64,000 bases of DNA from the IMG/VR virus record IMGVR_UViG_2814123389_000006, positions 1-64,000 of that record. One strand, given 5' to 3'. How positions within the stretch are numbered: the first letter of the stretch is position 1; each line of letters opens with the position of its first letter. A model generated the notes under the pieces. That model saw nothing but the letters and a program-made list of their open reading frames with translations, was not told the origin of the DNA and searched no databases. Position numbers and translations under genes: made by a program. Shown here one piece after another: positions 2,043 through 57,735 of the stretch. The DNA is from a virus. Its lineage: Duplodnaviria; Heunggongvirae; Uroviricota; Caudoviricetes.

Positions 2043-2088
2043 ATCCCTCACAGCACCAACAAATCTCACAAGGAGCAAGTCCGCCGTG

Positions 2089-21852: not shown

Positions 21853-22945
21853 CCACACTCGAATCAACCTGGACGTCTGGGGCGACGACGAGTTCCTGGA
21901 CCTGCCGGTCGACGCGCAGAGCCTGTACTGGACGCTCTGGACCAGCCCCGACCGGACGTACTGCGGGGCCCACTGGTGGCACCCAGGGAAGTTGGCTCAG
22001 CGCGCCTCTGACTGGACGGTGCCGCGGTTGGAGGCGGCGGCCGCGGTGCTGTCTGAGCGCCTGTTCCTGGTGGTCGACGTCGACACCGAGGAGTGCCTTC
22101 TGCGGTCGTGGATCAAGCACGACGGGTTGTGGCGAACCCCGAACATGGCGGTGTCGATGGCCAACGATCGCGCCAAGCTGGCCTCCCGGGTGCTGCGCGG
22201 TGTGGTCGTGCACGAGGTCCACAAGATCCGCGAGATGGAGCCCGCGTCGACGTCGTGGGAGCGGGATCAGGTTCGGAATCTGCTGGGGCAGAGGGCGGTC
22301 GATCCGGCTGAGTTGGCTCCGTTTACCCCGGCCGCAACCCGGGGTGTAACCCCGCCTTCAACTACGCCTGTAACCCAGCAGGTAACCCCAGGCGTAACCC
22401 CCCCGCTAACCCTTAGCGATGGGGTTGGGGTTAACCCCCCGCCCAACACCCCCTCTACTACAGCTACAGCTACTTCTACAGCTACACCCGCTAAAGCGGG
22501 CTCTACGCGCGCGCGAGCCCAGCGCGGGCAGCCAACGTTCGGCGAGATGCTCCGCGGCGAGCCCGATCCCATCCCCGACGCCCCGCCAGACGACCAAGGC
22601 GCCCGCCCCGTCGCCGGAACGACGGCAGCCGAGTTGGTGCGATCGACGTTCCCCACGAATCGCTACCCCGCTGCGGTCCTGACGGATCTGCGGATCCGGG
22701 TCGGCGCGCTGCTGCATGAAGGAACCGACCCCGAGCTGATCCGCGATGCCCTGCATCTGTGGGACCAGCGCGACGGCGGACCCGGCCTGCTGCCGCACCT
22801 GCTGGCCGACGCCGTCAAGGCACGCGCCCCCCGGCCCGACGCGAAGAAGCAGAACCCCGGATCCCGCAAGGTCGCCGCCGGCCTGGACCTTGCGGCCCGA
22901 CTCGCCGCCGGAACCAACGACGACCCACCAGCCCTGGAGGCGTGA
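21842..22945 (+). CDS. Hypothetical protein with Pro/Thr-rich linker (candidate replication initiator carrying an internal ori-like repeat tract)
   Basis: ATG 21842, in frame with track ORF 21557..22945. Low-complexity linker (VTPPSTTPVTQQVTPGVTPP...TTATATSTATP) is encoded by phased DNA repeats. Confidence 0.45.
   Translation: MARDHTRINLDVWGDDEFLDLPVDAQSLYWTLWTSPDRTYCGAHWWHPGKLAQRASDWTVPRLEAAAAVLSERLFLVVDVDTEECLLRSWIKHDGLWRTPNMAVSMANDRAKLASRVLRGVVVHEVHKIREMEPASTSWERDQVRNLLGQRAVDPAELAPFTPAATRGVTPPSTTPVTQQVTPGVTPPLTLSDGVGVNPPPNTPSTTATATSTATPAKAGSTRARAQRGQPTFGEMLRGEPDPIPDAPPDDQGARPVAGTTAAELVRSTFPTNRYPAAVLTDLRIRVGALLHEGTDPELIRDALHLWDQRDGGPGLLPHLLADAVKARAPRPDAKKQNPGSRKVAAGLDLAARLAAGTNDDPPALEA
22346..22437. 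repeat. Iteron-like GTAACCC repeats (6-7 copies; four at exact 12-bp spacing)
   Basis: TAACCC at 22347, 22371, 22383, 22395, 22407, 22432, plus variant TTACCCC at 22323. Also GGGTTGGGG. Lies inside the CDS. Confidence 0.45.
22458..22487. repeat. Tandem hexamer repeat (CTACAG)x5, two copies degenerate
   Basis: ctacag ctacag ctactt ctacag ctacac. Encodes TTATATSTAT. Confidence 0.5.
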
Positions 22946-31090: not shown

Positions 31091-31945
31091 ATGAAGGCAT
31101 TGGGCTCGGCCGGACTTGTGCCCACCTCCAGCGGCGAGGGCTTCGCGCAACCAGGGTCCTTCACGTTTCCCGGCGGCGAGCACCACTTGCGGAACATTCC
31201 CGACTTCGACGAGCCGGTGACCTGGATCGCCGACGTGAGAGGCGCCGACCCCAACGATCTGGTCAAGGCAGCGCTGTTGGCCGACGTGGCACACCAGCGC
31301 AACGACCGATTCGTTCTGTGGCTGCCATACGCGCCCGCTGCCCGCGCCGACCGCGGCCAGCCCCTCGGAGTGAAGGTGTACGCCGATCTGATCAACACGA
31401 TGCAGGCCGAACGTGTCGTGATCATCGATCCGCACAGTCCGACCGTCGTCGAGCACCTGAACCATGTTGTCGTCGCCGACGTGCTCGGGCTTATCGACCG
31501 CGTCATGGGTTCAGGGCTGGTACGTCGCCACTTCGACGGTGTGATCGCACCCGACAAGGGCGCCACCGAACGGGCCGCAGTGGTCGCGAAGCACCTTGAT
31601 ATCGACCTGTATCAAGCCGAGAAGGACCGCGACTTCGAGACCGGGCGAATCCTCGGCATCCGCATGCTCGACCGGCTCCCCGAGTCCGGCGGCTACCTCG
31701 TGGTCGACGACATCTGTGACGGCGGAGGAACTTTCAAACTGCTAGCCCAGGCGACCGGTTTACCGCGCGAACAGCTCGCCCTGTGGGTCACGCACGGCAT
31801 CTTCTCGGGCATCGCCTGCCACCTCCGCGATGACTACCACCAGATTTTCACCACCGACTCCCATCCCGGGCACAACCGGGTGGACGTCGCAACCACCATC
31901 GTCCCCACCTTCACCAGCCTGTTCACCGCAACCACCAGGAGCTGA
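31091..31945 (+). CDS. Ribose-phosphate pyrophosphokinase-like enzyme (Prs-like; candidate ADPR-PP synthetase Adps of NARP1)
   Basis: PRPP-binding loop YLVVDDICDGGGT. Two-domain Prs-like layout. Immediately upstream of a NAMPT-family gene. Confidence 0.7.
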   Translation: MKALGSAGLVPTSSGEGFAQPGSFTFPGGEHHLRNIPDFDEPVTWIADVRGADPNDLVKAALLADVAHQRNDRFVLWLPYAPAARADRGQPLGVKVYADLINTMQAERVVIIDPHSPTVVEHLNHVVVADVLGLIDRVMGSGLVRRHFDGVIAPDKGATERAAVVAKHLDIDLYQAEKDRDFETGRILGIRMLDRLPESGGYLVVDDICDGGGTFKLLAQATGLPREQLALWVTHGIFSGIACHLRDDYHQIFTTDSHPGHNRVDVATTIVPTFTSLFTATTRS

Positions 31946-31949
31946 TCCG

Positions 31950-33437
31950 ATGACCGATTTCACGCCCGTCGCTGCGCTGTTCCAGACCGATGCCTACAAG
32001 CTCGACCACCGCCGCCAGTACGGGCTGAGCGGCAACGTCACCCGGGTCTACTCGAACTTCACCAACCGCAAGTCCCGGCTGCCCGGCGTTGACCACGTCG
32101 TCCACTTCGGACTGCAGGCGTATATCCAGAAGCACCTCGTTGAGGCCTTCAAGCCGTTCTTCGCGGCCGACGAATCTGTGGTCACTGAGCTGTACTTCCA
32201 GCGCGTGAAGTCCATTCTGGGACCCGATGCGGCGCGCGCGATCGGCGTCAAACACATTCGTGACCTCCACCAATTGGGCTACCTGCCGTTGCGGTTCTGT
32301 GCTGTCCCCGAGGGCACGCTGGTACCCATCCGAGCACCGAGCTTCACCGTGGAGAACACCGCCCCAGAGTTCTTCTGGCTGACCAACTACATCGAGACCG
32401 GCTTGTCGGCCGGCTACTGGCAGGCCAGCACATCGGCCACCATCGCCCACGAATATCGCAAGGCGCTCGAGGCGGCGGCTGAACGGACCGGAGCCCCCAT
32501 CGAGGCAGTCGATTGGCAGTGCCACGACTTCAGCTATCGGGGCATGTCGAGTCACGAAACCGCGGCGGCGTCGGGCGCAGCCCATCTGCTGTCGTTCACG
32601 GGCACCGACTCGTTGGTGGCGCTGGACTGGATCGACCGCTACTACGGCGGGGAGTACGTTGCGGGATCTGTTGCGGCGACGGAGCACTCGGTGATGTGCA
32701 CCGGCATCGCGACCGCCGGGGAGTTGGAGACGTTCGAGCGGCTGCTCGACCTGTACCCGTCCGGCATCGTGTCGGTCGTCTCGGACACTTTCGACCTGTG
32801 GCGCGTCCTCACCGAGTACCTGCCGAAGCTGAACGACAAGATCATGTCGCGGGACGGCAAGTTGGTGATCCGGCCAGACTCCGGCGACCCGCTCAAGATC
32901 CTGTGCGGCGACCCGCAGGCGACCGCGGGAAGCCCCGCGCACCGCGGCGTGGTGGGGTTGCTGCTCGATCAGTTCGGCGGCGCCGAGAACGAAGCAGGGT
33001 TCATGGAGTTGGACCCGTGCGTGGGCGTGATCTATGGCGATTCCATCACCATCGAGCGCGCGAACTCCATCACGGCGAAGTTAGCGCTGATGGGATTCGC
33101 CTCCACCTCGGTGGTGTTCGGCGTCGGCAGCTACACCTACCAGCACAACACCAGGGACACCTTCGGCAGCGCCATGAAAGCCACCTGGGCCGAGGTCGAC
33201 GGCAAGGGCGTGGACCTGTTCAAGAACCCCGTCACCGATGACGGCACGAAGCGCAGCGCCACCGGCCGCCTCGCTGTCCTGCCAACTGGCCCAGATGGTG
33301 CCCTGGAGCTGCACGAGCGGGCTGGCGGCTACCAGCAGCAGCACTCGGTACTCCAGCCCGTTTGGGAGGACGGCAAGTTCATCGAGCGGCAGACATTCGC
33401 CAATGTCCGCGAGGTGCTCGCCGCACAGGCCCGGTAG
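31950..33437 (+). CDS. Nicotinamide phosphoribosyltransferase-family enzyme (NAMPT/NadV-like; candidate Namat of NARP1)
   Basis: N-terminal FQTDAYKLDHRRQY (the DSYK motif of NAMPT). About 495 aa. ATG 31950, in frame with track ORF 31830..33437. Confidence 0.75.
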   Translation: MTDFTPVAALFQTDAYKLDHRRQYGLSGNVTRVYSNFTNRKSRLPGVDHVVHFGLQAYIQKHLVEAFKPFFAADESVVTELYFQRVKSILGPDAARAIGVKHIRDLHQLGYLPLRFCAVPEGTLVPIRAPSFTVENTAPEFFWLTNYIETGLSAGYWQASTSATIAHEYRKALEAAAERTGAPIEAVDWQCHDFSYRGMSSHETAAASGAAHLLSFTGTDSLVALDWIDRYYGGEYVAGSVAATEHSVMCTGIATAGELETFERLLDLYPSGIVSVVSDTFDLWRVLTEYLPKLNDKIMSRDGKLVIRPDSGDPLKILCGDPQATAGSPAHRGVVGLLLDQFGGAENEAGFMELDPCVGVIYGDSITIERANSITAKLALMGFASTSVVFGVGSYTYQHNTRDTFGSAMKATWAEVDGKGVDLFKNPVTDDGTKRSATGRLAVLPTGPDGALELHERAGGYQQQHSVLQPVWEDGKFIERQTFANVREVLAAQAR

Positions 33438-33474
33438 TGCCACCCGTGATTGCGCCTCACTCCGGCGGCGTCCA

Positions 33475-33867
33475 GTGACCGACCAGGATTGGCCGCCGCC
33501 GGGGTGGACACAGCAGGACTGCGATCGCCTGGTGGCCATCACCTACCGGCAGCTCTGCGAGCAGATCGCGGCCGGCGAGGTAGCGGACCCCGCGACCGCA
33601 TTGGCTGACATGGACCGGCTTTGGTCAGGCCGCTCGGTGCAGTGGATGCTGCCAACTCTGCAGATGCCGGGCGAGGACGACTGGCTGACCGACGAGGAAG
33701 TGGCCCGCTGGGTGGGCTGCCGGGCTGTCACGGTCCGCAACTGGGCGAGCCGGGCCCGCCGTGGTGGCGACGGTGTCATCCCAATCAACGGTCGCTACCG
33801 GTGGGGCGATGTCCAGGAGTACCGGCAGCGCCAGAACCAACGGCGGCAGGGACAGTCGGATGGATGA
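33475..33867 (+). CDS. Excisionase/AlpA-type HTH DNA-binding protein
   Basis: HTH LTDEEVARWVGCRAVTVRNWASR. GTG 33475, in frame with track ORF 33238..33867. Confidence 0.45.
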   Translation: MTDQDWPPPGWTQQDCDRLVAITYRQLCEQIAAGEVADPATALADMDRLWSGRSVQWMLPTLQMPGEDDWLTDEEVARWVGCRAVTVRNWASRARRGGDGVIPINGRYRWGDVQEYRQRQNQRRQGQSDG

Positions 33868-33887
33868 GGCGCAAATCTACACAAATG

Positions 33888-33916
33888 TTGAACACAATTG
33901 TGTGGATTTGTATGAT
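33888..33916 (+). promoter_or_regulatory. Sigma-70/SigA-like promoter TTGAAC-17-TATGAT with embedded 12-bp palindrome ACACAATTGTGT
   Basis: -35 at 33888-33893, -10 at 33911-33916, palindrome at 33892-33903. -10 ends 7 nt before ATG 33924, implying a leaderless transcript. Confidence 0.45.
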
Positions 33917-33923
33917 CGGCGCT

Positions 33924-34562
33924 ATGAAGCACTTCTTGAGCAGCACCCAGGTCGCAGAACGCCTTGGCATGACCCGTGATGCGTTGAATACCAAGATCCG
34001 TGCCGATGCCTTCATTCCGCCTGATGTAGTGGTTGGGGACCGATATCAGGGCTGGTCGGTTGAGTCCATTGAAAAATGGGCCGAGTCTGGCGGTGGGGAT
34101 CGAATCCGGGTCGACAGCGACAAACTGTTCGATGTGGTTACCAGTATTCGGCGGGCGGCCGAGAGGGTTCGCGCATTTGGCCGTAGCCCGGAAGGTGGCA
34201 ACGGCACGGCGATTGCGGTTCCGTCCGACCTTCACATGCTTGCGGGACGGTTGGAGGCGGAGGCCCGCAGCTGGCTGGAGGTACGGGACTACTCCGGCAA
34301 GCGTTTCAGACAGCTCGTCGATGTCGCGACGGGTGTCACTGAGATCAGGGTTGAGTTTGAGCAGGTTCCGACGCTCGTTGGCTCGCCCGCGTTACCGCCG
34401 GATGTCCGAAGGCTTGAGCTTCACGCCGCAGCGGACGAGATGGCATTGGCGGCGGAGGAAATTCGCCGCGCTTTGGTGGCGAAGTCTTCACGCCACTACC
34501 AAGAGTCGCTGCTGAAAAAGGCGGCGCAGATCCATGAGTTCGCTGATGCGCTAATGACATAG
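33924..34562 (+). CDS. HTH (excisionase/MerR-like) regulator, probably leaderless
   Basis: N-terminal HTH LSSTQVAERLGMTRDALNTKIRADAFIPPD...GWSVESIEKWAE. ATG 33924 (alternative 33912). Confidence 0.5.
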   Translation: MKHFLSSTQVAERLGMTRDALNTKIRADAFIPPDVVVGDRYQGWSVESIEKWAESGGGDRIRVDSDKLFDVVTSIRRAAERVRAFGRSPEGGNGTAIAVPSDLHMLAGRLEAEARSWLEVRDYSGKRFRQLVDVATGVTEIRVEFEQVPTLVGSPALPPDVRRLELHAAADEMALAAEEIRRALVAKSSRHYQESLLKKAAQIHEFADALMT

Positions 34563-34640
34563 TCGGGCAATGGTATTCGACGAGTGGAACACAAACGCCT
34601 GGGCTGCGGTGCCCGCACTGACCTGAAAGGCCCCTGACGC

Positions 34641-34925
34641 ATGACGACCCATACGCATGACAATCGACTCGGCATGGTGCGCAACAGGCTGAAGCTTCGC
34701 GGCTACACCGTGTCGGAGATCGGGGAGGGCAAGTTCGGCGGCCGCGTGTTCACGATCGAGCAGGGCCCAGATGGACGCCCGGTCGCGGTTGACGTCACCG
34801 ACCTGGCGACGCCCAACGGTCAGCCGTCCGACATCAGGTGGGGCGCCTCTGGGTTCGACGATCTGGCTCTGACGCCGGACCAGTTGGTTGGCCGCATTGT
34901 CGAGTCGCTTGAGGCGCTGCCGTGA
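34641..34925 (+). CDS. Hypothetical protein
   Basis: Track ORF. Confidence 0.4.
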   Translation: MTTHTHDNRLGMVRNRLKLRGYTVSEIGEGKFGGRVFTIEQGPDGRPVAVDVTDLATPNGQPSDIRWGASGFDDLALTPDQLVGRIVESLEALP

Positions 34926-35246: not shown

Positions 35247-35507
35247 ATGGCGAGCGTGGAAAAGATCGAGGCCCAGATGCGGGAATCGGCGGCCAACGTG
35301 GCGTACAACGACCTCTACAAGGTCTGCGTCCACTACTTCGGCGACGCCCGCCAGAAGGGCTCCAGCCACGCTGTGTTCCGCACCCCGTGGCAGGGCAACC
35401 CGCGCGTCAACATTCAGAATGACCACGGCAAAGCCAAGGCCTACCAGGTCAAACAGGTCTTGGAAGCCATCGCCAAGCAGGCCGAGATGAGAAAGGGGAA
35501 CCACTGA
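35247..35507 (+). CDS. hicA: HicA-family toxin (mRNA interferase)
   Basis: 86 aa. GSSHAVF...H motif region. Immediately upstream of a HicB-like gene with TGATG coupling. Confidence 0.55.
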   Translation: MASVEKIEAQMRESAANVAYNDLYKVCVHYFGDARQKGSSHAVFRTPWQGNPRVNIQNDHGKAKAYQVKQVLEAIAKQAEMRKGNH

Positions 35508-36091
35508 TGTCCAATCACTACACCTACCGGGCCGAGTGGTCGCCCGAGGACAACGAATACGTCGGGCTCGTTGCCGAGTTCCCGAGCTTGTCCTGGCTAG
35601 CCCCGTCCGCGGGCGAGGCTATCGCCGGCGCAGAGCGCCTGGTCGATGACATCTTGGCTGATATGGCCGAGACGGGTGAAACCCCGCCCGAGCCGCTAAC
35701 CGAGCGTCGCTACAGCGGGAACCTGTCGGTGCGTACCAGCCCGGAGCAGCATCGCCAGCTCACCATCGAGGCCGCCGAGCAAGGCGTCTCGGTTAATCAG
35801 TGGATCATCCAGAAGCTCGGCAAGGACTGGTCCGGGGCCCGCGCCGGTGTCGCCTCGGGTGTCGAGGAGGTGCTTGCGAATGTGGTTGGCCAGCGGGTTA
35901 AGCCGAAGTTTCCGTCCTTCGACCTGATGGTCCGGGAGGTCGCAGAGTCGATCATGGATCCCGTGGATATTGGGTCGTTCGCTCCGTCCTTCAAGCAGCC
36001 GGAAGGGGCGGCATTTCTAGTGCTGTACAACGACACTGCTGGCACCCACGTGGTGAGCCTCGGGGAGGTCAAGTCGAAGGCGAAGAAGTAG
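35507..36091 (+). CDS. hicB: HicB-family antitoxin (HicB N-domain plus RHH DNA-binding)
   Basis: N-terminal HicB-like YRAEWSPEDNEYVGLVAEFPSLSWLAPSAGEAIAGAERLV. RHH segment SGNLSVRTSPEQHRQLTIEAAEQGVSVNQWIIQKL. Confidence 0.65.
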   Translation: MSNHYTYRAEWSPEDNEYVGLVAEFPSLSWLAPSAGEAIAGAERLVDDILADMAETGETPPEPLTERRYSGNLSVRTSPEQHRQLTIEAAEQGVSVNQWIIQKLGKDWSGARAGVASGVEEVLANVVGQRVKPKFPSFDLMVREVAESIMDPVDIGSFAPSFKQPEGAAFLVLYNDTAGTHVVSLGEVKSKAKK

Positions 36092-36150
36092 CGCGCAGGC
36101 TTCGCGTGTGACCGATGTCGCACGGATCGTGAAATCTGTTGGACGCCAAG

Positions 36151-36166
36151 CTGTACCCCGGTACAG
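36151..36166. terminator. Perfect inverted repeat CTGTACC-CC-GGTACAG (possible terminator after hicB)
   Basis: 7-bp perfect stem. Confidence 0.25.
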
Positions 36167-36187
36167 TTCAACATGTTCGGGTGATGT

Positions 36188-36320
36188 GAGCCGGACGCAG
36201 ATCGGTTATCCACTTCTAATGGAGAGGTCGCGGGTTCGAGTCCCGTCACCCCGTTCGCGGGGTGTAGCTCAGTCGGCAGAGCGCTAAACCCCGGTCCGCA
36301 GACACACGCCCACATCGCCT
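36188..36320 (+). ncRNA. Y-RNA-like (YrlA-type) ncRNA candidate 1 with permuted tRNA-like module
   Basis: T-arm GCGGG-TTCGAGT-CCCGT (36230-36246). 3' acceptor CACCCCG joined by TTCG loop to complementary CGGGGTG. tRNA D-arm TAGCTCAGTCGGCAGAGCGC. No anticodon arm. 5' GAGCCGGA...ATCGGTTATC. Ends with ACACGCCCACA. Confidence 0.45.
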
Positions 36321-36341
36321 GAGTAACAACTCAATTGCTGC

Positions 36342-36470
36342 GAGCCGGAGCATGATCGGTTATCGATTTGGGATCGAGAGGTCGCGGGTTCGAATCCCGC
36401 TCACTCAGGTGGCCTGGGGGATAGCTCAGTGGTAGAGCGCTAAAACCCGGTCGGCACAACACGCCCGCAG
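36342..36470 (+). ncRNA. Y-RNA-like ncRNA candidate 2 with tRNA-like T-arm/acceptor-like stem/D-arm module
   Basis: T-arm GCGGG-TTCGAAT-CCCGC (36384-36400). Stem-loop CTCAG-GTGGC-CTGGG. D-arm TAGCTCAGTGGTAGAGCGC. Same 5' GAGCCGGAG...ATCGGTTATC and 3' ACACGCCCGCA framing. Confidence 0.45.
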
Positions 36471-36496
36471 CACTCAACAACTGAACATTGCGATGC

Positions 36497-36640
36497 GAGC
36501 CGAAGCGAATCGGTTAACCAATGGTCCGTGGGTTCAAATCCCACTGCACGCCAATGCAGTTCGGTGTGTATGGCAGAGCGGCCTAATGCAACTGGCCTCA
36601 AACTCCCGGTACGCGCACCACGCCCGCATCGCTCCAGGTC
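36497..36640 (+). ncRNA. Y-RNA-like ncRNA candidate 3 (degenerate tRNA-like module)
   Basis: T-arm GTGGG-TTCAAAT-CCCAC (36528-36544). Stem-loop CTGCA-CGCCAA-TGCAG. Degenerate D-arm (TGGCAGAGC). 5' GAGCCGAAGCGAATCGGTTAACC. 3' CCACGCCCGCA. Confidence 0.35.
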
Positions 36641-36662
36641 CACCCAATTGATCAATCGGTGT

Positions 36663-36735
36663 GAGCCGGACGGCGGTCGGTTACCTTCATGCGGAATACC
36701 CCGGTCGCCACCAACACGCCCACACCCCAGACCCC
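36663..36735 (+). ncRNA. Y-RNA-like short stem-loop unit 4 (no T-arm)
   Basis: GAGCCGGACGGCGGTCGGTTACC...CCGGTCGCC forms a roughly 9-bp stem (GGCGGTCGG/CCGGTCGCC). Ends with CAACACGCCCACA. Confidence 0.3.
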
Positions 36736-36744
36736 CTGGTGCGC

Positions 36745-36812
36745 GCCGGATTTCGATCAGTTATCACTGAGAATGATTCCTCCGGTCGGAGACTCACACG
36801 CCCGCACCCCCC
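36745..36812 (+). ncRNA. Y-RNA-like short unit 5 (degenerate)
   Basis: GCCGGATTTCGATCAGTTATCAC...CCTCCGGTCGGAGACTCACACGCCCGCA. Shares the 5' and 3' motifs of the other units. Confidence 0.25.
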
Positions 36813-36824
36813 TCAACAAAGGAG

Positions 36825-38483
36825 ATGGCAGTGGACGTGTTGGCGACCGTGAGCACCCGGCGGACCCCGCAGACGGAGAAGGCCGACCCGCGCCAAATCC
36901 GAAACGCTGCAGGCGGATACACGTTCGCCGTCGATGACTGGGCGCGCGTCCACCGGTTCCTCACCCTCGGTGTCGATGGCGGAACCTACTACACGGGCGC
37001 CGCCGAGCTGGCCAAGGACAACGCTGAGGTGATCTTGCGCGCCGCCGCGACCGACCCGATCGAGCTGGTCCGCCGCATCGTCGAAGTCTCGACGGCTGGC
37101 CGCGCCCCCAAGCAGAACCCCGCCCTGTTCGCGCTCGCGATCGCCGCCGCGGCCGACGACGTCGACGGCCGGCGCGCCGCGCTGGCCGCACTGCCCCAGG
37201 TGGCCCGCACCGGCACCCACCTGTTCCTGTTCGCGCGGTACGTCGAGCAGTTCCGCGGTTGGGGCCCAGCCTTGGCGAAGGGCGTTGCCCGCTGGTACAC
37301 CGATCGCAACGTCGACAAGCTGGCCTACCAGGTGGTGAAGTACCGGCAGCGGGAGGGCTGGACCCACCGGGACCTGCTGCGCCTGTCGCATCCCGTGACC
37401 GTCGAGCCGGAACGCCGCGCTCTGTTCGATTTCGTGACTCGTGGCTCGCTCGGCGCAGTCCCCGAAGCGCTGGACCCCGGCGAGGTCCGGGTGGGACTCC
37501 CGGCGATTATCGAGGACTTCACCGCCGCGCAGAACAGCACCTCCATCCACGACTGGGTTGACCTGATCGGCCGCGGAAACGGGCTGTCGTGGGAGATGCT
37601 GCCCGACGCAGCGCTCGGCCACGCCAAGGTGTGGGAGGCGCTGATCGATCAGGGCATTCCGCAGACCGCGCTGATGCGGCAGCTCCCGCGCCTGACCCGT
37701 CTGGGTCTGGCCGTGGGCGATACCGGTCGGACGATCGCGGCCCAGTTGCAGGACCCTGTTCGGCTGAAGACCGGCCGGGTGCATCCGATCAACGTCCTGG
37801 TGGCTCAGCGCACCTACACGTCGGGCCAGTCGGCCCGCGGAGAGTCGACGTGGACGCCGGTCTCGAAGATCAGCGACGCGCTCGACGCGGCGTTCTACAA
37901 CGCGTATGGCGCGGTCGAGCCGTCCGGTAAGCGGATCCTGCTTGCCCTGGACGTGTCGGGTTCGATGACGGCGCCCGTGTCCGGGCTGCCGCTGTCGTGC
38001 CGGGAGTCCTCCGCCGCGCTGGCGATGGTCACCGCGGGAACCGAGCCCAACCACGACATCGTGGGCTTCACCGGCCGGCACGGGAACAACGGTTACGGCG
38101 CCTACGTCACGTCGACGGCGTTGACCGAGCTGGATATCAGCCCGCGCCGGCGCCTGGACGACGTGTGCCGCTACGTCGGCGGCCTGCCGATGGGGATGAC
38201 CGACTGCGCTCTGCCGTTCACCTGGGCGGCCGAGCAGAAGCGGGTCTACGACGCGGTCGTGGTCCTCACCGACAACGAATCGTGGGCAGGACCGGTCCAC
38301 GTCCACCAGGCGCTGCGGCGGTACCGGGAACAGATCAATCCCGAGGCGCGCCTGATCGTCGCGTCGATGACGGCTCGACCCAACACGGTTGCGGACCCGA
38401 AGGACCCGCTGTCGCTGGACGTGTCGGGCTTCGACACGACCGTGCCGCAGGTGATCAGCGACTTCGCGGCCGGTCGGATCTGA
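36825..38483 (+). CDS. rsr: Ro60 ortholog (Rsr; TROVE domain plus C-terminal vWA/MIDAS domain)
   Basis: RBS AAAGGAG. TROVE-like N-terminal region (GYTFAVDDWARVHRFLTLGVDGGTYY). C-terminal vWA with MIDAS DVSGSM. Preceded by the Y-RNA-like array. Confidence 0.7.
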   Translation: MAVDVLATVSTRRTPQTEKADPRQIRNAAGGYTFAVDDWARVHRFLTLGVDGGTYYTGAAELAKDNAEVILRAAATDPIELVRRIVEVSTAGRAPKQNPALFALAIAAAADDVDGRRAALAALPQVARTGTHLFLFARYVEQFRGWGPALAKGVARWYTDRNVDKLAYQVVKYRQREGWTHRDLLRLSHPVTVEPERRALFDFVTRGSLGAVPEALDPGEVRVGLPAIIEDFTAAQNSTSIHDWVDLIGRGNGLSWEMLPDAALGHAKVWEALIDQGIPQTALMRQLPRLTRLGLAVGDTGRTIAAQLQDPVRLKTGRVHPINVLVAQRTYTSGQSARGESTWTPVSKISDALDAAFYNAYGAVEPSGKRILLALDVSGSMTAPVSGLPLSCRESSAALAMVTAGTEPNHDIVGFTGRHGNNGYGAYVTSTALTELDISPRRRLDDVCRYVGGLPMGMTDCALPFTWAAEQKRVYDAVVVLTDNESWAGPVHVHQALRRYREQINPEARLIVASMTARPNTVADPKDPLSLDVSGFDTTVPQVISDFAAGRI

Positions 38484-38687
38484 GTGGACCCACGTGCGCA
38501 GCAAGCCCGGGAGCATCACCGCAAGGCGGCAGACGCTTCCGGGCTTGCTGATCGGCACCGCGCTCAGCGCGACAATCTCGTCCGGCAGATATGGGCGACG
38601 GCGCGCGCCCAGTGGACGTACGCGAAGCTGGCGAAGGCCATCGGCTGCTCCCCTGAGCTCATCGCGAAGATCGTCAATCGCCGCTGA
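38484..38687 (+). CDS. Small HTH DNA-binding protein
   Basis: GTG 38484 immediately after rsr stop. HTH TYAKLAKAIGCSPELIAKIV. Confidence 0.4.
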   Translation: MDPRAQQAREHHRKAADASGLADRHRAQRDNLVRQIWATARAQWTYAKLAKAIGCSPELIAKIVNRR

Positions 38688-38759: not shown

Positions 38760-38815
38760 CCCAGGGGGTGTCTTCCCCAGGAGGGATAGTCGGCATTTAA
38801 CTTTTCTGGCCCCAG
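38760..38815. terminator. Candidate bidirectional terminator between convergent genes
   Basis: GGGGG-TGTCTT-CCCC hairpin followed by TTTAACTTTTCTGG. Lies between the + gene ending 38687 and the - gene ending 38797. Confidence 0.25.
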
Positions 38816-39456
38816 GGCGTCCAGAGCGTCACCAGCGTGGGTTCCACCGCCGTGGTGTACCAGTGCGTTGTCTTGCCGGTGAGGTGCCGCTGAACGGCCC
38901 ATAGGCCGTAGTCGGCCACCTGGAGGCCCCAGGACGTTGCAGCGTCCCAGTAGCAAAGCTTGATCACGCGGTTGACCTGTGCGCAAACCTCTGCCAGCGC
39001 TGCTTTCGCTTGCTGCCGGCGTGCGGCGGTGGCGATGGTGCCGACGATGACGAAGAGTTCGTCCTGTGGGGTGCACACCCACTTCGCGACCTCCTTGAAG
39101 TGGAGGTACCAGGCCATCTTGTAGAGGTACATCTCGCCCTTGGCCTGCACGTATGGGTAGGCGTTGGACTTGCAGAGGAACGTGGTGTCGAACCTGGGTG
39201 CCTGCTGGCGGATCAGGTCGTACATTTCGTTCTTGGTCGGCTTGCTGTCGTTCACCGCGTGGAACCCGCGGGGCAGGGTGAGGCCCGAAGCCTCGATCTG
39301 CGCGCGGAGCTTGAGCCCGTCATAGAGGTGCTCGCCGTGGGAATGATCGGGGAACACCGCGGTCCCGAAGCCGAAGTAGTCGGTCGCGCCCGCTTTGCCG
39401 TCGGGGGAGTAGTCGAGGTTGCCGGTTTCGTCGGCATACATGTAGATGGTGGCCAC
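38797..39456 (-). CDS. DUF3800-family protein (minus-strand moron)
   Basis: N-terminus (M)ATIYMYADETGNLDY matches the DUF3800 M-x-IY-x-DESG hallmark. GTG start. Opposite strand to the phage backbone. Confidence 0.5.
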   Translation of the reverse strand: MATIYMYADETGNLDYSPDGKAGATDYFGFGTAVFPDHSHGEHLYDGLKLRAQIEASGLTLPRGFHAVNDSKPTKNEMYDLIRQQAPRFDTTFLCKSNAYPYVQAKGEMYLYKMAWYLHFKEVAKWVCTPQDELFVIVGTIATAARRQQAKAALAEVCAQVNRVIKLCYWDAATSWGLQVADYGLWAVQRHLTGKTTHWYTTAVEPTLVTLWTPWGQKS

Positions 39457-50237: not shown

Positions 50238-50695
50238 CGGATAGGCCGACGCCGACGCGGGCCGAACGCGCGAAGCGCGACGCCCGGGTGCTGCAGATGT
50301 ACATCGCCGGCGCGACGTACCGCGATATCGGCGAGCGGCTCGCGATGAGCCACACCAACGTCGACAAGGTCATCCGCCGCGAGATGGCGAAGGCGGCGAA
50401 GCGTCGCGACCTGTTGGCCGACCAGGCGCTCGCCACGTTCGTGGAGCGGACTGAGGCGATCTTCAAGGCCCACTTCCCGAACGCCCTGCGTGGTGACTAC
50501 AAGGCGTCGGTCATCTGCGACCGGATCCTGGCCCGTCAAGCGCGCCTCTACGGGCTGACCGACGGGGGTGGTGCGGCGACCGTGATGGGCCCGGACGACG
50601 AGGACACGGATCCGACGCTGCTCGGTGGCGGCGAGGACAAAGAGGACGTGACCCGGCTTGACGAGTGGCGTCGCAGAAGCTCCACCGGAACTTAA
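50234..50695 (+). CDS. Terminase small subunit candidate (HTH, sigma-70 region-4-like)
   Basis: GTG 50234 (GTGTGA overlap). HTH YIAGATYRDIGERLAMSHTNVDKVIRR. Directly upstream of TerL. Confidence 0.5.
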   Translation: MTDRPTPTRAERAKRDARVLQMYIAGATYRDIGERLAMSHTNVDKVIRREMAKAAKRRDLLADQALATFVERTEAIFKAHFPNALRGDYKASVICDRILARQARLYGLTDGGGAATVMGPDDEDTDPTLLGGGEDKEDVTRLDEWRRRSSTGT

Positions 50696-52274
50696 GGGCC
50701 ACACCAAGCCGCGGCTATTCACGCCGCCGCTGGAGGCCAACTGCGACACGTCGCGCGAGGACGGCTGCCCCTGTGGCTGTGGCCTAAACCCCGACACGTC
50801 GTGGGGTTTCGACTGCTGCCTGTTCCTGGAATTCGTTCTCGGCTGGGAACTGGTGCCCTATCAGCGGTGGCTGTATATCCACGCGCTCGAAAAAGGCCGC
50901 GGCGGTAAAGGATTCCGATACCGCACCGTCGTTATTCTCATTGCCCGCCAGAACGGAAAGACGAAATGGCTTCGCGGCCTGGGACTTTGGCGCCTGTACA
51001 TCAACAGGAAGGGCGTCATACCGACCCTGAGCAGCAAGCCGGCAGCCAAGACGGTTGTGATCGCGGCGCAAGGCCTCGAATACGCGGAATCGACACTCGG
51101 CGAGGTCGTCGAGGACGTCAAGGAATGCCCGGCGCTGTTCACCGAGTTTGTCCGGCACTCGCAGACCAACGGCAAGCACCGGATGATCCTGACCAACCGG
51201 CGGTCGTGGCGGGCAACCGCGGCGAACCGCCGAGCCTGCCGTGGTTGGTCGGTCGACCTCGCCGAACTCGACGAGTTGCGCGAGCACCACGACTGGCTGG
51301 CATGGGACGCCATCGTGCCTACCACCACGTCGCGCCGCTACTCGATGACCGTCGCGGCGTCGAACGCGGGGGACAAGCGGTCGGTGGTGCTGAGGTCCCT
51401 GCGCGACGAGGCCATCTCCCGAATCCTCGGGATGAACACCGAGGACACCTCGACCGGCCTGTTCGAGTGGTCCGCGCCAGACGACGTGCACCACATGGAT
51501 CGCCGGTACTGGCCGATGGCCAACCCGGCGCTCGGATTCCTTCCAGGCCACGACGAGGAAGGCCTGGCGGCGAAGGCGGAGGCCAAGGCCTCCGACGTGC
51601 CCGGGTTCAAGACCGAGCACCTGTGCCAGTGGGTCGACACCCTGACGCCCGGCATCATCCCGGCCGGCGACTGGCGCGACACCATAGACCCGGGGTCCTG
51701 CCGATATGAGGGGGCGCCCGTGTTCGCCGCCGTGGACGTCAACTTCGAACGAACCAAGGCCTACATCGCGATCGCATCCCGACGAACCGACGGTCTGCTG
51801 CACGTCGAGGTCGTCGCCGCCCAGCGCGGTCTCGACTGGGTGGTCCCTTGGTTCAAAGAGCCCACCCGCGCCGGGAAGTTCGTAGCCGTCGCGGTCCAAG
51901 CCCGCGGCGCACCCGTGTCCGACCTGATCGACCCGCTGCGGCAGGCGGGACTGACCGTGATGGAAATCGGCGGCGCTGACCTGACCCGCGGTTGCGGCGG
52001 TGTGCTGTTCGACGGCATCCGCAACCACAGCATCTGGCACCGGCCGCAACCCGCCCTCGACACGGCGGCGGCCAGCGCACCCGCTCGAAGCATGGGCGGC
52101 GACACCTGGGTGCTCGACCGCAAGAACTCACCTGTGGACGCGTCACCGCTCGTGGCGTGTGCCGCCGCGGCGTGGGCAGAGTCCGAGGGCCCGCCGCAGC
52201 CCGAGAAGGTGCCCGACGTTCACGAGTGGCCTGACGAAGAGGAGATGGCGCAGTGGGAGAAAGAGGAGTTTTGA
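50658..52274 (+). CDS. Terminase large subunit
   Basis: Walker A VVILIARQNGKTKW. C-terminal nuclease-like domain. Start uncertain (TTG 50658). Confidence 0.8.
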   Translation: MTSGVAEAPPELKGHTKPRLFTPPLEANCDTSREDGCPCGCGLNPDTSWGFDCCLFLEFVLGWELVPYQRWLYIHALEKGRGGKGFRYRTVVILIARQNGKTKWLRGLGLWRLYINRKGVIPTLSSKPAAKTVVIAAQGLEYAESTLGEVVEDVKECPALFTEFVRHSQTNGKHRMILTNRRSWRATAANRRACRGWSVDLAELDELREHHDWLAWDAIVPTTTSRRYSMTVAASNAGDKRSVVLRSLRDEAISRILGMNTEDTSTGLFEWSAPDDVHHMDRRYWPMANPALGFLPGHDEEGLAAKAEAKASDVPGFKTEHLCQWVDTLTPGIIPAGDWRDTIDPGSCRYEGAPVFAAVDVNFERTKAYIAIASRRTDGLLHVEVVAAQRGLDWVVPWFKEPTRAGKFVAVAVQARGAPVSDLIDPLRQAGLTVMEIGGADLTRGCGGVLFDGIRNHSIWHRPQPALDTAAASAPARSMGGDTWVLDRKNSPVDASPLVACAAAAWAESEGPPQPEKVPDVHEWPDEEEMAQWEKEEF

Positions 52275-52315
52275 GGCAATTCGCCTCGGCCTGCGCCGAA
52301 TTGGGCGGTCTGACG

Positions 52316-52471
52316 ATGGTGAATGTGGGGTTCTGGCAGATCCACACGGTAGCCGGGCTGTTCGCGACCGGACTGAGTTTTATTCTGGTCGGACTGGCCG
52401 TCGACCCGCCTCGCAAGCAGCAGCCGCGGACCAGCGGCGGCCGCGTCCTCGGACTGGTTGAGGGCTCGTGA
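52316..52471 (+). CDS. Possible small membrane protein
   Basis: MVNVGFWQIHTVAGLFATGLSFILVGLAV. Within track ORF 52253..52471. Confidence 0.25.
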   Translation: MVNVGFWQIHTVAGLFATGLSFILVGLAVDPPRKQQPRTSGGRVLGLVEGS

Positions 52472-54800: not shown

Positions 54801-55011
54801 ACCACGCGGTCGGAACCACCTGTCCGCGTAAGAGTTTCCGGCACTCGCAACCCAACCTCCCTCAACGCCCCACCTGGCACTGGTGGGGCGTTTTGCGTTG
54901 GCGTGCAAGCCGAATCCTCCCTGGCACTGGGAGTCGCAATCCCGGCGAGCCGATCCGGCGGCCGGTTCCAAATCTGCCCTGTGTCAGGGCAATTCCCGAA
55001 AGGAGCGTTCC

Positions 55012-56418: not shown

Positions 56419-56431
56419 CCGTCCAGGCCAG

Positions 56432-56469
56432 TTGTCGGGCCCCCACCCACTTTTCGGGCGGGGGCCCGG
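56432..56469 (+). terminator. Strong GC hairpin after capsid gene (terminator/attenuator candidate)
   Basis: CGGGCCCCC ... GGGGGCCCG, 9-bp GC stem with a roughly 17-nt loop. No U-tract. Confidence 0.35.
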
Positions 56470-56504
56470 CGCTGGTTGCCACTCTCACCACCCTGGAGGA
56501 ACCC

Positions 56505-56816
56505 ATGAGCGACACCCACAATCGTGATTTCACCGCGGACGTCATTGCGTCCCTCAAGTCCCAGCGCCGCCTGAAGCTGTCTGTTGGTCAGCCCGTCGAT
56601 GACGTCGACGCGGAACTTGCCCGCTACGGCGTCTCGGTGCAATCGGCTGTTCCGGAAACCAAGAACGAGGCTCCCGCACCGCAGAAGGCTGTACCGGCGC
56701 CGCCAGACACCGCCGCCAAGCCAGCGGAGCCGACCAAGGCCGCGTCCGCACCGGCGAAAAAGGCTGCGCCCCCTGCGAAGCCTACTGCACCGGCTGACGG
56801 CAAGGCCGGCGACTAG
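56505..56816 (+). CDS. Hypothetical head protein (Ala/Pro/Lys-rich C-terminus)
   Basis: RBS CTGGAGGAACCC precedes ATG. Confidence 0.4.
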   Translation: MSDTHNRDFTADVIASLKSQRRLKLSVGQPVDDVDAELARYGVSVQSAVPETKNEAPAPQKAVPAPPDTAAKPAEPTKAASAPAKKAAPPAKPTAPADGKAGD

Positions 56817-56819
56817 TCG

Positions 56820-57733: not shown

Positions 57734-57735
57734 CC

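What the first reader, a model, noticed from the sequence alone, without database searches (positions are those of the whole stretch)
36188..38483. Tandem array of five Y-RNA-like ncRNAs with permuted tRNA-like modules directly upstream of a Ro60 (Rsr) ortholog
Units 1 and 2 carry canonical tRNA T-arms (GCGGG-TTCGAnT-CCCGn) and canonical D-arms (TAGCTCAGTnGG-AGAGCGC) in reversed order: T-arm, 3' acceptor strand, short closing loop, 5' acceptor strand, D-arm. There is no anticodon arm. Unit 3 is a degenerate version of this layout, and units 4 and 5 are T-arm-less stem-loops. All five units share a 5' block GAGCCGGA...ATCGGTTA(T/A)C and a 3' block (C/A)ACGCCC(A/G)CA. They sit immediately before a TROVE plus vWA (Ro60) gene. 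The layout matches bacterial and phage YrlA-class Y RNAs that mimic tRNA and tether Ro60. Five tandem copies of graded completeness beside NARP and HicAB in one island is unusual. A role in resisting tRNA- or rRNA-targeting defences, or in tRNA quality control during infection, is possible.
Basis: partly seen in the sequence, partly recalled or inferred. Interest (0 to 1): 0.75.

Follow-up and report, generated by a model that had tools for sequence, protein, structure and literature searches.

The report
Five phage Y RNAs before Ro60
A mycobacteriophage-like prophage carries five small non-coding "Y RNA" genes in a row, three with a rearranged tRNA-like module, directly in front of the gene for the Ro60 protein that binds such RNAs; this is a rich example of a system known since 2014, not a new kind.

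Summary
Five head-to-tail units lie at 36180-36808 (+), followed by a TROVE+vWA Ro60 gene (36831-38483). Each unit is closed by a covarying 5'/3' stem that carries the Ro-binding-type motif GNCGRA.

A covariance model of that stem finds exactly these five sites in the 64 kb window (E <= 6e-8) and nothing else. Units 1 and 2 are YrlA-class Y RNAs (V, T arm, closed acceptor stem, D arm). On 44 homologues the fold is 94.7% paired, with 21 of 35 pairs compensatory and tRNA 15:48 covariation.

Three corrections:
- Unit 3 is not degenerate. It belongs to a conserved subtype with a 7-bp acceptor stem and a class-II-tRNA-like D arm, also seen in at least five other (pro)phage lineages.
- Five copies are not exceptional. 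Cellular actinobacterial rsr loci have a median of 2 units, but 10 of 51 viral loci have 5-7.
- HicA and a complete NARP are not confirmed.

YrlA beside bacterial and mycobacteriophage Ro60 was published by Chen et al. in 2014, so this is a new member of a known kind.

Outside the finding, a conserved small HTH-like gene follows rsr. It co-occurs with a palindrome over the array's promoter-like site, which suggests an autoregulated operon.

The parts
36139..36167 (+). Promoter-like element: TTGGAC (36139-36144), 17-nt spacer, TACAGT (36162-36167). The palindrome CTGTAC-cccg-GTACAG (36151-36166) overlaps it. It ends 13 nt before unit 1.
   Evidence: Read from the sequence. The same layout sits in front of the first unit in Sparky, L004, L007, L010, L084, L085, L087 and L149. 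It is too weak for the sigma-70 consensus scan (0 sites). Function is inferred.
36180..36318 (+). Unit 1 (W1), YrlA type I. GNCGRA motif 36190-36195; V hairpin 36210-36222; T arm 36230-36246; 7-bp acceptor-like stem with UUCG loop 36247-36264; U8 A9; D arm 36267-36282; the 3' strand closes the basal stem.
   Evidence: Rfam YrlA 37.8 bits, E 1.4e-6 locally, below the gathering score. R2 64.1 bits, not in its training set. 90% identical to Sparky unit a. Fold supported on alignment A2.
36336..36472 (+). Unit 2 (W2), YrlA type I paralogue. T arm 36384-36400; D arm 36424-36438. The acceptor-like stem is 9 bp with one A.G mismatch. The V hairpin is UCGAU-UUGGG-AUCGA.
   Evidence: Rfam YrlA 33.5 bits over the full model. 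R1 43.1 bits when not in training. R2 70.8 bits. 81-82% identical to W1 and Sparky unit a.
36490..36632 (+). Unit 3 (W3), YrlA type II. Exact GCCGAAG motif; T arm 36528-36544; 7-bp acceptor-like stem UGCACGC (36545-36551) / GUGUGUA (36564-36570) with a 12-nt loop; class-II-tRNA-like D arm GCA-GAGCGGCCUAA-UGC (36573-36589).
   Evidence: R1 38.7 and R2 53.3 bits, not in either training set. Orthologues in L007, L084, L085, L105 and L089-91 have compensating acceptor stems and an invariant D arm.
36658..36726 (+). Unit 4 (W4), short Y RNA: basal Ro-binding-type stem plus a small apical loop, with no tRNA-like module.
   Evidence: R1 58.2 bits (in training) and R2 58.2 bits. A continuous 9-bp helix GGCGGUCGG/CCGGUCGCC is in the MFE fold. 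Best matches are short units of L007 and Sparky, 75%.
36738..36808 (+). Unit 5 (W5), short Y RNA, last before rsr. Apical hairpin AUCA-N7-UGAU.
   Evidence: R1 60.4 and R2 54.6 bits. 82% identical to Sparky unit b. A short unit in this position, just before Ro, recurs in many loci.
36831..38483 (+). Ro60/Rsr ortholog (TROVE + vWA with MIDAS DVSGS). The likely start is GTG 36831, 6 nt after AGGAG. ATG 36825 is the longest ORF.
   Evidence: Pfam TROVE 3.5e-48 and vWA_Ro60 4.3e-55. 72% aa identity to Sparky and Farewell Ro, and 355 phage records with a homologue. Homologues begin (M/V)DVL.
38484..38687 (+). Conserved 67-aa HTH-like ORF. Its start overlaps the Ro stop codon (TGAGTG). Candidate regulator or cofactor of the operon.
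   Evidence: Found right after rsr in 76 loci. Alignment A5 has mean column identity 65%. Weak Pfam hits to HTH_31 (26 of 38 members), HTH_23 and MRP-L20. Co-occurs with the upstream palindrome.

Best explanation
The region is a phage-borne Y RNA-Ro60 operon with five Y RNA genes.

Proposed mechanism:
1. One promoter-like element about 13 nt upstream of unit 1 drives a precursor that carries the five Y RNAs, rsr and a small HTH-like gene.
2. The precursor is cut into individual Y RNAs.
3. Each Y RNA pairs its 5' and 3' ends into a long imperfect helix. An internal loop in that helix presents the GNCGRA motif, the Ro60 docking site.
4. The apical 'effector' modules differ. There are two class-I tRNA mimics (V, T, closed acceptor, D: YrlA), one mimic with a class-II-like D arm, and two plain stem-loops. 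The phage Ro60 ring could therefore be gated and tethered to different host partners, such as PNPase in a RYPER-like complex or proteins that bind the tRNA elbow. That would redirect host structured-RNA decay or quality control during lysogeny or infection.
5. Units 1 and 3 have exact 7-bp acceptor-like stems, so they may be opened by RNase P and receive CCA, as M. smegmatis YrlA does.

Shown here: the repeats, their folds by covariation, tRNA tertiary-pair covariation, strand, linkage to Ro60, and conservation of the subtypes.

Inferred: transcription, processing, Ro60 binding, partners and biological role.
For: Specificity of the units: basal-stem covariance models find exactly the five units in 64 kb. 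In 162 related loci nearly all their hits lie on the rsr strand just upstream of rsr; in six Promicromonospora-type loci further hits lie on the opposite strand 1.5-3 kb upstream.

Basal stem: on 129 units it is 92.1% paired against 34-43% for slid controls, and 20 of 21 pairs show compensatory changes.

YrlA fold: on 44 units including W1 and W2 it is 94.7% paired against 34-48% for slid controls. 21 of 35 pairs are compensatory, and 0 of 500 shuffles reach the observed value.

Strand: the U:G pair at columns 24:129 is invariant in 44 of 44 units. It would be an A.C mismatch on the other strand, which fixes the + strand.

tRNA mimicry: the Levitt pair 15:48 is G:C in 24 units, A:U in 19, with 1 exception.

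Link to published YrlA: W1 matches the published M. smegmatis YrlA probe sequences CCACTTCTAATGG and CACACGCCCACATC.

Ro60: Pfam E-values 1e-48 to 1e-55.

One transcription unit: no terminator-like site between the units and rsr, spacers of 11-25 nt, and a conserved promoter-like element only before unit 1.

Age of the subtypes: the best match of W1, W2, W3 and W4 lies in another genome, and W5 matches Sparky unit b (0.82) better than its window paralogue W4 (0.72). W2 is nearly as close to W1 (0.81) as to Sparky unit a (0.82).

[quoted passage not shown] Two Yrl RNAs lie upstream of Thermus phage phiLo Ro60 and form a complex with host PNPase (PMC12135203).
Against: There are no expression or binding data for this locus.

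The Rfam YrlA gathering score is not reached: 37.8 and 33.5 bits against 69. A control weakens this objection: none of 15 actinobacterial rsr loci reached it either, including Gordonia polyisoprenivorans, the species (this strain not verified) whose YrlA is shown in the 2014 paper.

Folding energies are not better than shuffles.

Most units carry GCCGGA rather than the published GNCGAA.

The promoter is weak by the sigma-70 consensus.

The function of any phage Ro60-Y RNA system in vivo is unknown.
Confidence: 0.88

Rival explanations
1. The units are tRNA genes, tRNA pseudogenes or a decayed tRNA cluster. The tRNA callers would then be right.
For: ARAGORN calls tRNA-Arg(tct) at 36177-36254. 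Rfam tRNA scores 30.5 bits, with a gathering score of 29, at 36320-36408. GenBank records annotate the homologous spots as tRNA-Thr or tRNA-Leu. The V hairpin has an anticodon-loop-like 7-nt loop.
Against: Both calls join the Ro-binding 5' strand or a spacer to a V hairpin and a T arm. The Rfam hit needs a 21-nt D-loop insertion and straddles two units. The real D arm and the 5' acceptor strand lie downstream of the T arm, in permuted order. Genuine tRNAs in related loci score 46-69 bits. The 5'/3' basal helix covaries across 129 units, and tRNAs have no such helix.
Confidence: 0.02
2. The array is a long structured 5' leader that controls rsr in cis, through attenuation, stability or translation control. 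It would not be a set of trans-acting stable RNAs.
For: The array is contiguous with rsr, with no terminator between them. The last unit ends 10 nt before the rsr ribosome-binding site (AGGAG, 36820-36824). Arms at 36711-36723 and 36831-36843 are 92% complementary, so unit 4 could pair with the rsr start region (I5).
Against: The same unit types occur in variable number and order, and even on the opposite strand from rsr in Promicromonospora loci. In M. smegmatis the orthologous RNAs accumulate as discrete Rsr-bound species (PMC4201824). Conserved tRNA tertiary pairs are hard to explain for a leader.
Confidence: 0.06
3. The units are circularly permuted pre-tRNAs. They would be processed (ends ligated, acceptor loop opened) into functional tRNA-like adaptors, or act as decoys for host tRNA-targeting nucleases, with Ro60 playing only a secondary role.
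For: Units 1 and 3 have exact 7-bp acceptor stems. M. smegmatis YrlA is cut by RNase P and receives CCA (PMC4201824). The permuted pre-tRNA analogy is discussed in bioRxiv 10.1101/312249. The unit sits next to a NAMPT-type counter-defence gene.
Against: No bacterial enzyme for such splicing is known (bioRxiv 10.1101/312249). Units 4 and 5 have no tRNA module yet keep the Ro-binding stem. The basal stem and motif, not an anticodon, are the most conserved shared features.
Confidence: 0.04

Closest known systems
YrlA / YrlB Y RNAs of Mycobacterium smegmatis and other Rsr-encoding bacteria and mycobacteriophages (Chen et al. 2014, RNA 20:1715, PMC4201824; Rfam RF02553)
   Same: Encoded just upstream of rsr on the same strand. 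Same 5' Ro-binding motif and basal helix. Same V-T-AS-D permuted tRNA-like module with tRNA tertiary pairs. 7-bp acceptor stem as in M. smegmatis. W1 shares the published probe sequences. More than one Y RNA per locus, with plain stem-loop partners.
   Different: Five units rather than two. One unit has a class-II-like D arm (3-bp stem, 11-nt GAGCGGCCUAA loop) plus extra 3' sequence. The short units lack the T arm reported for M. smegmatis YrlB. The motif is GCCGGA in four of the five units. The scores fall below the Rfam gathering threshold, as they do in all 15 actinobacterial loci tested.
Thermus phage phiLo Ro60 with Yrl1 and Yrl2 (NAR 2025, PMC12135203)
   Same: A phage-encoded Ro60 with Y RNA-like genes directly upstream. 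They were identified by a CGAA-type motif in a 5'/3' stem-bulge-stem. Shown in vitro to bind the phage Ro60 and host PNPase.
   Different: Two units, and no tRNA-like module is reported. The host phylum is different. Ro60 binding is experimentally shown there and only inferred here.
Deinococcus radiodurans Yrn1/Yrn2-Rsr-PNPase (RYPER)
   Same: Same architecture: a Ro-binding helix formed by the RNA ends plus an effector module. W4 aligns over the full length of the Deinococcus Y RNA model in the same layout.
   Different: That alignment is not significant (16.6 bits, E 4.9). The tRNA-like part of Yrn1 has the opposite arm order and is thought to have evolved independently (PMC4201824).
M. abscessus prophage rsr loci (prophiT37-1, prophiGD43A-5) and phage Sparky
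   Same: Homologous Ro (63-72% aa) preceded by unannotated arrays of the same unit types, and followed by the same small ORF.
   Different: prophiT37-1 has six units and Sparky two. The motif there is ACAGGA or GCAGGA with a compensating GUUC 3' strand. The neighbours are BrnT/antitoxin genes or tRNA genes instead of HicB and NAMPT.

Membership tests
YrlA (Y RNA-like A; Chen et al. 2014) | GNCGAAN0-1G motif near the 5' end (putative Rsr contact) | tested here: met
   W3 has the exact GCCGAAG. W1, W2, W4 and W5 have GCCGGA(N)G, one A-to-G change. Among 44 actinobacterial YrlA-type units, 30 have GCCGGA and 8 have GCCGAA, so this is the clade's normal form.
YrlA (Y RNA-like A; Chen et al. 2014) | Near-invariant T and D stem-loops in the order T, acceptor-like stem-loop (AS), D, with an optional V hairpin 5' of T | tested here: met
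   Met for W1 and W2. On A2 the T, AS and D helices are 95-100% paired, and all 7 AS pairs have compensatory changes. Met for W3 with a variant D arm. Not met for W4 and W5, which are therefore Y RNAs but not YrlA.
YrlA (Y RNA-like A; Chen et al. 2014) | tRNA tertiary interactions can form, with covariation of the Levitt pair 15:48 | tested here: met
   G15:C48 in 24 units, A15:U48 in 19, and 1 exception among 44 units. W1 and W2 are G:C. U8, A14, G18 G19, A21 and the T-loop UUCRA are visible in the sequence.
YrlA (Y RNA-like A; Chen et al. 2014) | Encoded within 4 kb of the Ro60 ortholog on the same strand | tested here: met
   The units end 22 nt (W5) to about 510 nt (W1) upstream of the rsr start, on the + strand.
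YrlA (Rfam RF02553) | Score at or above the curated gathering score (69 bits) | tested here: not met
   W1 scores 37.8 and W2 33.5 bits. Control: no YrlA hit at the gathering score in 15 actinobacterial or phage rsr loci, including Gordonia polyisoprenivorans, the species (this strain not verified) shown in the 2014 paper. The threshold therefore excludes this whole clade and is not informative for membership.
Y RNA (general) | 5' and 3' ends pair into a long helix with an internal loop or bulge that carries the Ro-binding site | tested here: met
   All five units qualify. The basal helix is 92.1% paired over 129 units, and 20 of 21 pairs are compensatory. The R1 consensus has an asymmetric internal loop: CGGA on the 5' side and 8 nt ending in ACAC on the 3' side.
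Y RNA (general) | Stable RNA physically bound by Ro60 | not testable with these tools
   Needs RIP or Northern blotting. Shown for the M. smegmatis orthologues (PMC4201824) and for phage phiLo Yrl RNAs in vitro (PMC12135203).
tRNA | Canonical order acceptor-D-anticodon-(V)-T-acceptor with a decoding anticodon arm | tested here: not met
   The order is permuted: T before D, the acceptor closed by a loop, and the basal stem in place of the anticodon stem. The ARAGORN call and the 30.5-bit Rfam call are chimeras of unrelated parts.
Ro60 / Rsr | TROVE (HEAT-repeat ring) domain followed by a vWA domain with MIDAS | tested here: met
   PF05731 3.5e-48 (residues 26-367) and PF25045 4.3e-55 (residues 370-548). 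The DVSGS motif is in the sequence.
HicAB toxin-antitoxin (claimed neighbour) | HicA toxin gene paired with HicB antitoxin | tested here: not met
   HicB is present: PF05534 3.7e-16 for 35507-36091. The upstream 86-aa ORF 35247-35507 has no Pfam, PHROG or NCBIfam hit.

The most novel reading that the evidence does not exclude
Actinobacterial (pro)phages would carry a regulated, expandable repertoire of Y RNAs rather than one Y RNA.

The repertoire has at least three conserved effector subtypes:
- a class-I tRNA mimic;
- a previously undescribed mimic with a class-II-like D arm;
- plain stem-loops.

Arrays hold 4-7 units. They would be transcribed from a promoter whose -10 lies inside a palindromic operator. 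That operator would be bound by the small HTH-like protein encoded right after rsr, closing an autoregulatory loop.

The different subtypes would dock one phage Ro60 onto different host tRNA- or RNA-processing factors, possibly as part of a counter-defence island.

The anticodon-loop-like V hairpin would be a relic of the first tRNA in the proposed dimeric-tRNA ancestor of YrlA.
Probability: 0.25. Interest if true: 0.6.

Novelty: new member of a known kind. Interest (0 to 1): 0.4.

Why it matters
What bacterial and phage Ro60-Y RNA particles do is still largely unknown, and it is unknown why their Y RNAs imitate tRNA.

This locus and its relatives show that (pro)phages keep several distinct, separately conserved tRNA-mimic and non-mimic Y RNAs in one operon. 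The operon also has a candidate operator and regulator. That gives a compact, genetically tractable system in M. smegmatis and M. abscessus phages. It could be used to ask which host factors each module recruits and whether Ro60 serves phage fitness or counter-defence.

There is also a practical point. These units are routinely mis-annotated as tRNAs or left unannotated, and Rfam's YrlA threshold was not reached in any of the 15 actinobacterial or phage rsr loci tested.

Tried and rejected
- Minimum free energy z-scores for each unit on both strands were not discriminating at 60-67% G+C. I relied on covariation instead.
- The Rfam gathering-threshold scan gave only a spurious tRNA hit. I rejected it as a membership criterion after the control.
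- With filters off, R1 split the long units into partial hits and scored them lower. This was a banding and local-end artefact, solved by retraining as R2.
- A naive search for the complementary 3' end mis-placed many unit ends. It was replaced by the covariance models.
- An exact-pattern scan of viral contigs for the W3 D arm found nothing. Homologues came instead from Ro-anchored loci.
- RNAalifold on A2 preferred a local hairpin GGCCGG/UCGGUU without covariation over the long-range stem. Explicit pair counting supported the long-range stem, which was 100% paired with one compensatory pair.
- The sigma-70 and terminator consensus scans found nothing.
- The single-sequence AlphaFold model of the small ORF gave one long helix (pLDDT 81, pTM 0.46) and did not help decide whether it is an HTH. 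I ran no fold search on it.
- A profile search of the small ORF against PDB gave only insignificant hits, E >= 0.2.
- A fixed-length spacer-motif search missed copies. A gapped regex worked.
- No held supplementary tables of Chen et al. 2014, and the 2020 Annual Review was not available. I therefore could not check which phages and how many YrlA copies per phage were already listed.
Full report
WHAT IS THERE

The window has 66.7% G+C and is a mycobacteriophage-like (pro)phage. It encodes:
- RecE/RecT (5189-7815);
- a replication initiator (21557-22945);
- DNA methylases;
- a NAMPT-like enzyme (31830-33437);
- HicB (35507-36091);
- terminase, portal, protease, major capsid protein and tail tube (50658-59096).

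It has only mosaic similarity to sequenced phages.

Between HicB and a Ro60 gene lie five head-to-tail units on the + strand: W1 36180-36318, W2 36336-36472, W3 36490-36632, W4 36658-36726 and W5 36738-36808. The spacers are 11-25 nt. The gene that follows matches Pfam TROVE (3.5e-48) and the Ro60 vWA domain (4.3e-55) and carries a MIDAS-type DVSGS motif. Homologues begin (M/V)DVL and AGGAG sits 6 nt upstream, so its start is probably GTG 36831 rather than ATG 36825.

IS IT MORE THAN CHANCE?

Each unit is closed by pairing of its ends. Examples are GGUGAUGUG.../...CACAUCGCC in W1, UGCUGCG.../...CGCAGCA in W2 and GCGAUGCG.../...CGCAUCGC in W3. The terminal stems therefore differ between units while the pairing is kept.

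I built covariance model R1 from 12 short units of different genomes. Twelve of the 20 pairs RNAalifold predicted on that alignment already showed compensatory changes; one more pair was added for the model, giving 21. R1 finds only these five places in the 64 kb window, on both strands, at E <= 10.

I retrained on 129 hits from 93 sources (the window and 92 loci) to give model R2. R2 scores all five units at 53-71 bits (E <= 6e-8) and nothing else at E <= 1. W1 and W3 were not in its training set.

Across those 129 units the basal helix is 92.1% paired, against 34-43% when the partners are slid. Twenty of 21 pairs have compensatory changes. That alignment is fitted to the model, which inflates the figure somewhat. 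An independent MAFFT alignment gives the same picture.

Folding energies alone are uninformative at this G+C content.

WHAT THE UNITS ARE

W1 and W2 have the layout published for YrlA Y RNAs:
- a 5' strand with the Ro-binding-type motif (GCCGGA);
- YUAY;
- a V hairpin;
- a T arm;
- an acceptor-like stem closed by a loop (AS);
- U8 A9;
- a D arm;
- a 3' strand.

I tested this on 44 such units from 42 loci. The structure is 94.7% paired, against 34-48% for slid controls. Twenty-one of 35 pairs are compensatory, including all seven AS pairs, and no shuffle out of 500 reaches the observed values.

The tRNA Levitt pair 15:48 covaries: G:C in 24 units, A:U in 19, with one exception. This is the test used by Chen et al. 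2014. An invariant U:G pair in the middle helix would be an A.C mismatch on the other strand, which fixes the + strand.

W1 also contains the sequences of the published M. smegmatis YrlA probes.

Rfam's YrlA model hits W1 at 37.8 bits and W2 at 33.5 bits. Both are locally significant but below the 69-bit gathering score. As a control I scanned 15 actinobacterial and phage rsr loci, including Gordonia polyisoprenivorans, the species (this strain not verified) whose YrlA is drawn in the 2014 paper. None reached that score. The failure therefore reflects a narrow Rfam model and does not argue against membership.

The ARAGORN tRNA-Arg(tct) call at 36177-36254 and the 30.5-bit Rfam tRNA hit at 36320-36408 are chimeras of basal strand or spacer, V hairpin and T arm. 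Real tRNAs in related loci score 46-69 bits. The same artefact explains 'tRNA-Thr' and 'tRNA-Leu' annotations over homologous units in GenBank phage records.

UNIT 3 IS NOT DEGENERATE

W3 has an exact GCCGAAG motif and a canonical T arm (GUGGG-UUCAAAU-CCCAC). It has a 7-bp AS (UGCACGC/GUGUGUA) and a D arm with a 3-bp stem and an 11-nt loop (GCA-GAGCGGCCUAA-UGC). That is the geometry of class II tRNAs (Leu/Ser/Tyr); this comparison rests on my knowledge of tRNA structure.

Orthologous units occur in L007, L084, L085, L105 and L089-91. The D arm is invariant and the AS changes in a compensating way: CAUUCUC/GAGGGUG, CGCACCC/GGGUGUG and UCGGCCC/GGGUCGG.

For W1, W2, W3 and W4 the best match lies in another genome: W1-Sparky a 0.90, W3-L084c 0.79, W4-L007c 0.75. 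W5 matches Sparky b (0.82) better than it matches its window paralogue W4 (0.72). W2 is nearly as close to W1 (0.81) as to Sparky a (0.82).

The array therefore holds three old types: YrlA-I twice, YrlA-II once and short stem-loops twice. It is not a gradient of decay.

W4 and W5 keep the basal helix and motif but lack a tRNA module. This resembles the 'long hairpin' second Y RNAs of other bacteria. M. smegmatis YrlB differs from them in having a T arm.

HOW UNUSUAL ARE FIVE COPIES?

I counted R2 hits at E < 1e-3 in two sets of loci.
- 83 Ro-anchored loci (80 from the species-representative genome collection, plus Sparky and the two M. abscessus prophage records): 8 loci have 1 unit, 38 have 2, 15 have 3, 20 have 4 and 2 have 5. 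The median is 2.
- 51 IMG/VR viral loci: 5 have 0, 1 has 1, 9 have 2, 13 have 3, 13 have 4, 6 have 5, 2 have 6 and 2 have 7. The zeros are distant Ro genes.

The M. abscessus prophage prophiT37-1 shows six units by eye. Five copies are therefore at the top of the range for cellular loci but ordinary for (pro)phages.

HOW IT PROBABLY WORKS

A conserved promoter-like element, TTGGAC-17 nt-TACAGT (36139-36167), precedes unit 1 only. No terminator-like site separates the units from rsr. In M. smegmatis, YrlA and YrlB come from one precursor upstream of rsr.

I infer one operon transcript that is processed into five Y RNAs. A clade-specific spacer motif, A[CAT]AACU[CG]AA(N0-2)UUG, lies just 5' of internal units seven times and occurs only once elsewhere in 1.33 Mb. 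It may mark a cleavage site.

Units 1 and 3 have exact 7-bp acceptor stems. That feature makes M. smegmatis YrlA a substrate for RNase P and CCA addition.

Each RNA would dock on the phage Ro60 through the GNCGRA loop and helix. Its apical module would gate Ro60 or tether it to host factors. The precedents are the Deinococcus and Salmonella Rsr-Y RNA-PNPase complex and the phage phiLo Ro60-Yrl-PNPase complex.

A phage Ro-like protein expressed alone is moderately toxic to M. smegmatis. That fits a need for Y RNA gating, but this is only a lead.

Transcription, processing, binding and the biological role are all inferred.

BEYOND THE FINDING

A 67-aa ORF (38484-38687) starts at the Ro stop codon. 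It is conserved right after rsr in 76 of the 162 loci, at 38-81% identity. It is absent from M. smegmatis-like cellular loci. It gives weak hits to HTH families and to mL58/MRP-L20.

Loci with this ORF have a TGTA-N4-8-TACA palindrome upstream of rsr in 51 of 76 cases, against 2 of 65 loci without it. Fisher's test gives 8e-17, but this is not corrected for shared ancestry. In the window the palindrome overlaps the -10-like hexamer. An autoregulatory repressor-operator pair is a reasonable hypothesis, but it is untested.

About half of the YrlA-I V hairpins have a 7-nt loop of the form C-U-NNN-R-A, like an anticodon loop. This fits the proposal that YrlA derives from a dimeric tRNA transcript.

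COMPARISON AND VERDICT

Y RNAs with a permuted tRNA-like module next to Ro60 were described in 254 bacteria and 22 phages, mycobacteriophages among them, in 2014. Multiple Y RNAs per locus and phage Yrl RNAs are also known. The finding is therefore a correct identification of a new member of a known kind.

Three things may be new: the class-II-like subtype, the scale of (pro)phage arrays (up to 7 units), and the HTH-like gene with its palindrome. I could not check the 2014 supplementary tables, so this cannot be settled here.

I found no paper in the held library that describes such arrays.

The claims about HicA and a complete NARP pathway are not supported.

Noticed in passing
window 38484-38687 (+): A 67-aa ORF starts at the Ro60 stop codon (TGAGTG). 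It is conserved immediately downstream of rsr in 76 of the 162 actinobacterial and phage loci, but not in M. smegmatis-like cellular loci. It gives weak hits to HTH_31, HTH_23 and MRP-L20 (mL58).
   Followed up: partly
window 36139-36167: A promoter-like TTGGAC-17-TACAGT with the palindrome CTGTACcccgGTACAG over the -10 region, 13 nt before unit 1. TGTA-N4-8-TACA palindromes occur upstream of rsr in 51 of 76 loci that have the small ORF, against 2 of 65 without it. Cellular mycobacterial loci instead have GCCCGC-N10-GCGGGC around a TACCGT -10.
   Followed up: partly
window 36326-36337 and 36477-36490; L007 3738; L084 2597 and 2747; L085 2601 and 2750: A conserved inter-unit spacer motif, A[CAT]AACU[CG]AA(N0-2)UUG, lies directly 5' of internal units in this phage clade. 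There is only one other hit in 1.33 Mb of loci. It may be an endonuclease processing site.
   Followed up: partly
window 36210-36222 (W1 V hairpin) and 44 homologues (A2): In about half of the YrlA type-I units the V hairpin has a 3-4-bp stem and a 7-nt loop C-U-NNN-R-A, like an anticodon loop. This explains the tRNA mis-calls and fits the dimeric-tRNA origin model.
   Followed up: partly
L003 2250-2328 (prophiGD43A-5 gene 51); Gordonia phages Boopy, BlueNGold and Mareelih; Microbacterium phage Magritte: GenBank phage records annotate tRNA-Thr, tRNA-Leu or tRNA-Arg over sequences homologous to YrlA units. These are probably annotation artefacts. The Y RNA arrays themselves are unannotated in Sparky, Farewell and prophiT37-1.
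   Followed up: partly
L102, L097 (7 units); L092, L103 (6); L002 2100-2975 (6 by eye): Some IMG/VR prophage contigs and M. abscessus prophages carry 6-7 Y RNA units upstream of rsr, the largest arrays seen here.
   Followed up: partly
L027, L036, L041, L057, L081, L083 (about 1000-2600, minus strand): Promicromonospora-type loci have two or three additional Y RNA units on the strand opposite to rsr, 1.5-3 kb upstream.
   Followed up: no
L001 2000-2558; L026 2372-3626: Clusters of genuine tRNA genes lie directly upstream of the Y RNA array in phage Sparky (4 tRNAs) and in a Nocardioides genome (7 tRNAs).
   Followed up: no
window 31830-33437, 35247-36091, 33437-34641: The NAMPT-like enzyme (phrog_448, 4e-187) and HicB are confirmed. 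The 86-aa ORF upstream of HicB has no HicA signal. No second NAD-salvage enzyme could be recognised in the poorly coding stretch 33437-34641.
   Followed up: partly
window 36711-36723 vs 36831-36843: A 13-nt inverted repeat, 92% complementary, links the 3' strand of unit 4 (CCAACACGCCCAC) to the first codons of rsr (GTGGACGTGTTGG) (I5 and I6). It could couple Y RNA folding to rsr translation, or it could be chance.
   Followed up: no
window 38797-39456 (-): A DUF3800 protein is encoded on the opposite strand just downstream of the rsr operon.
   Followed up: no
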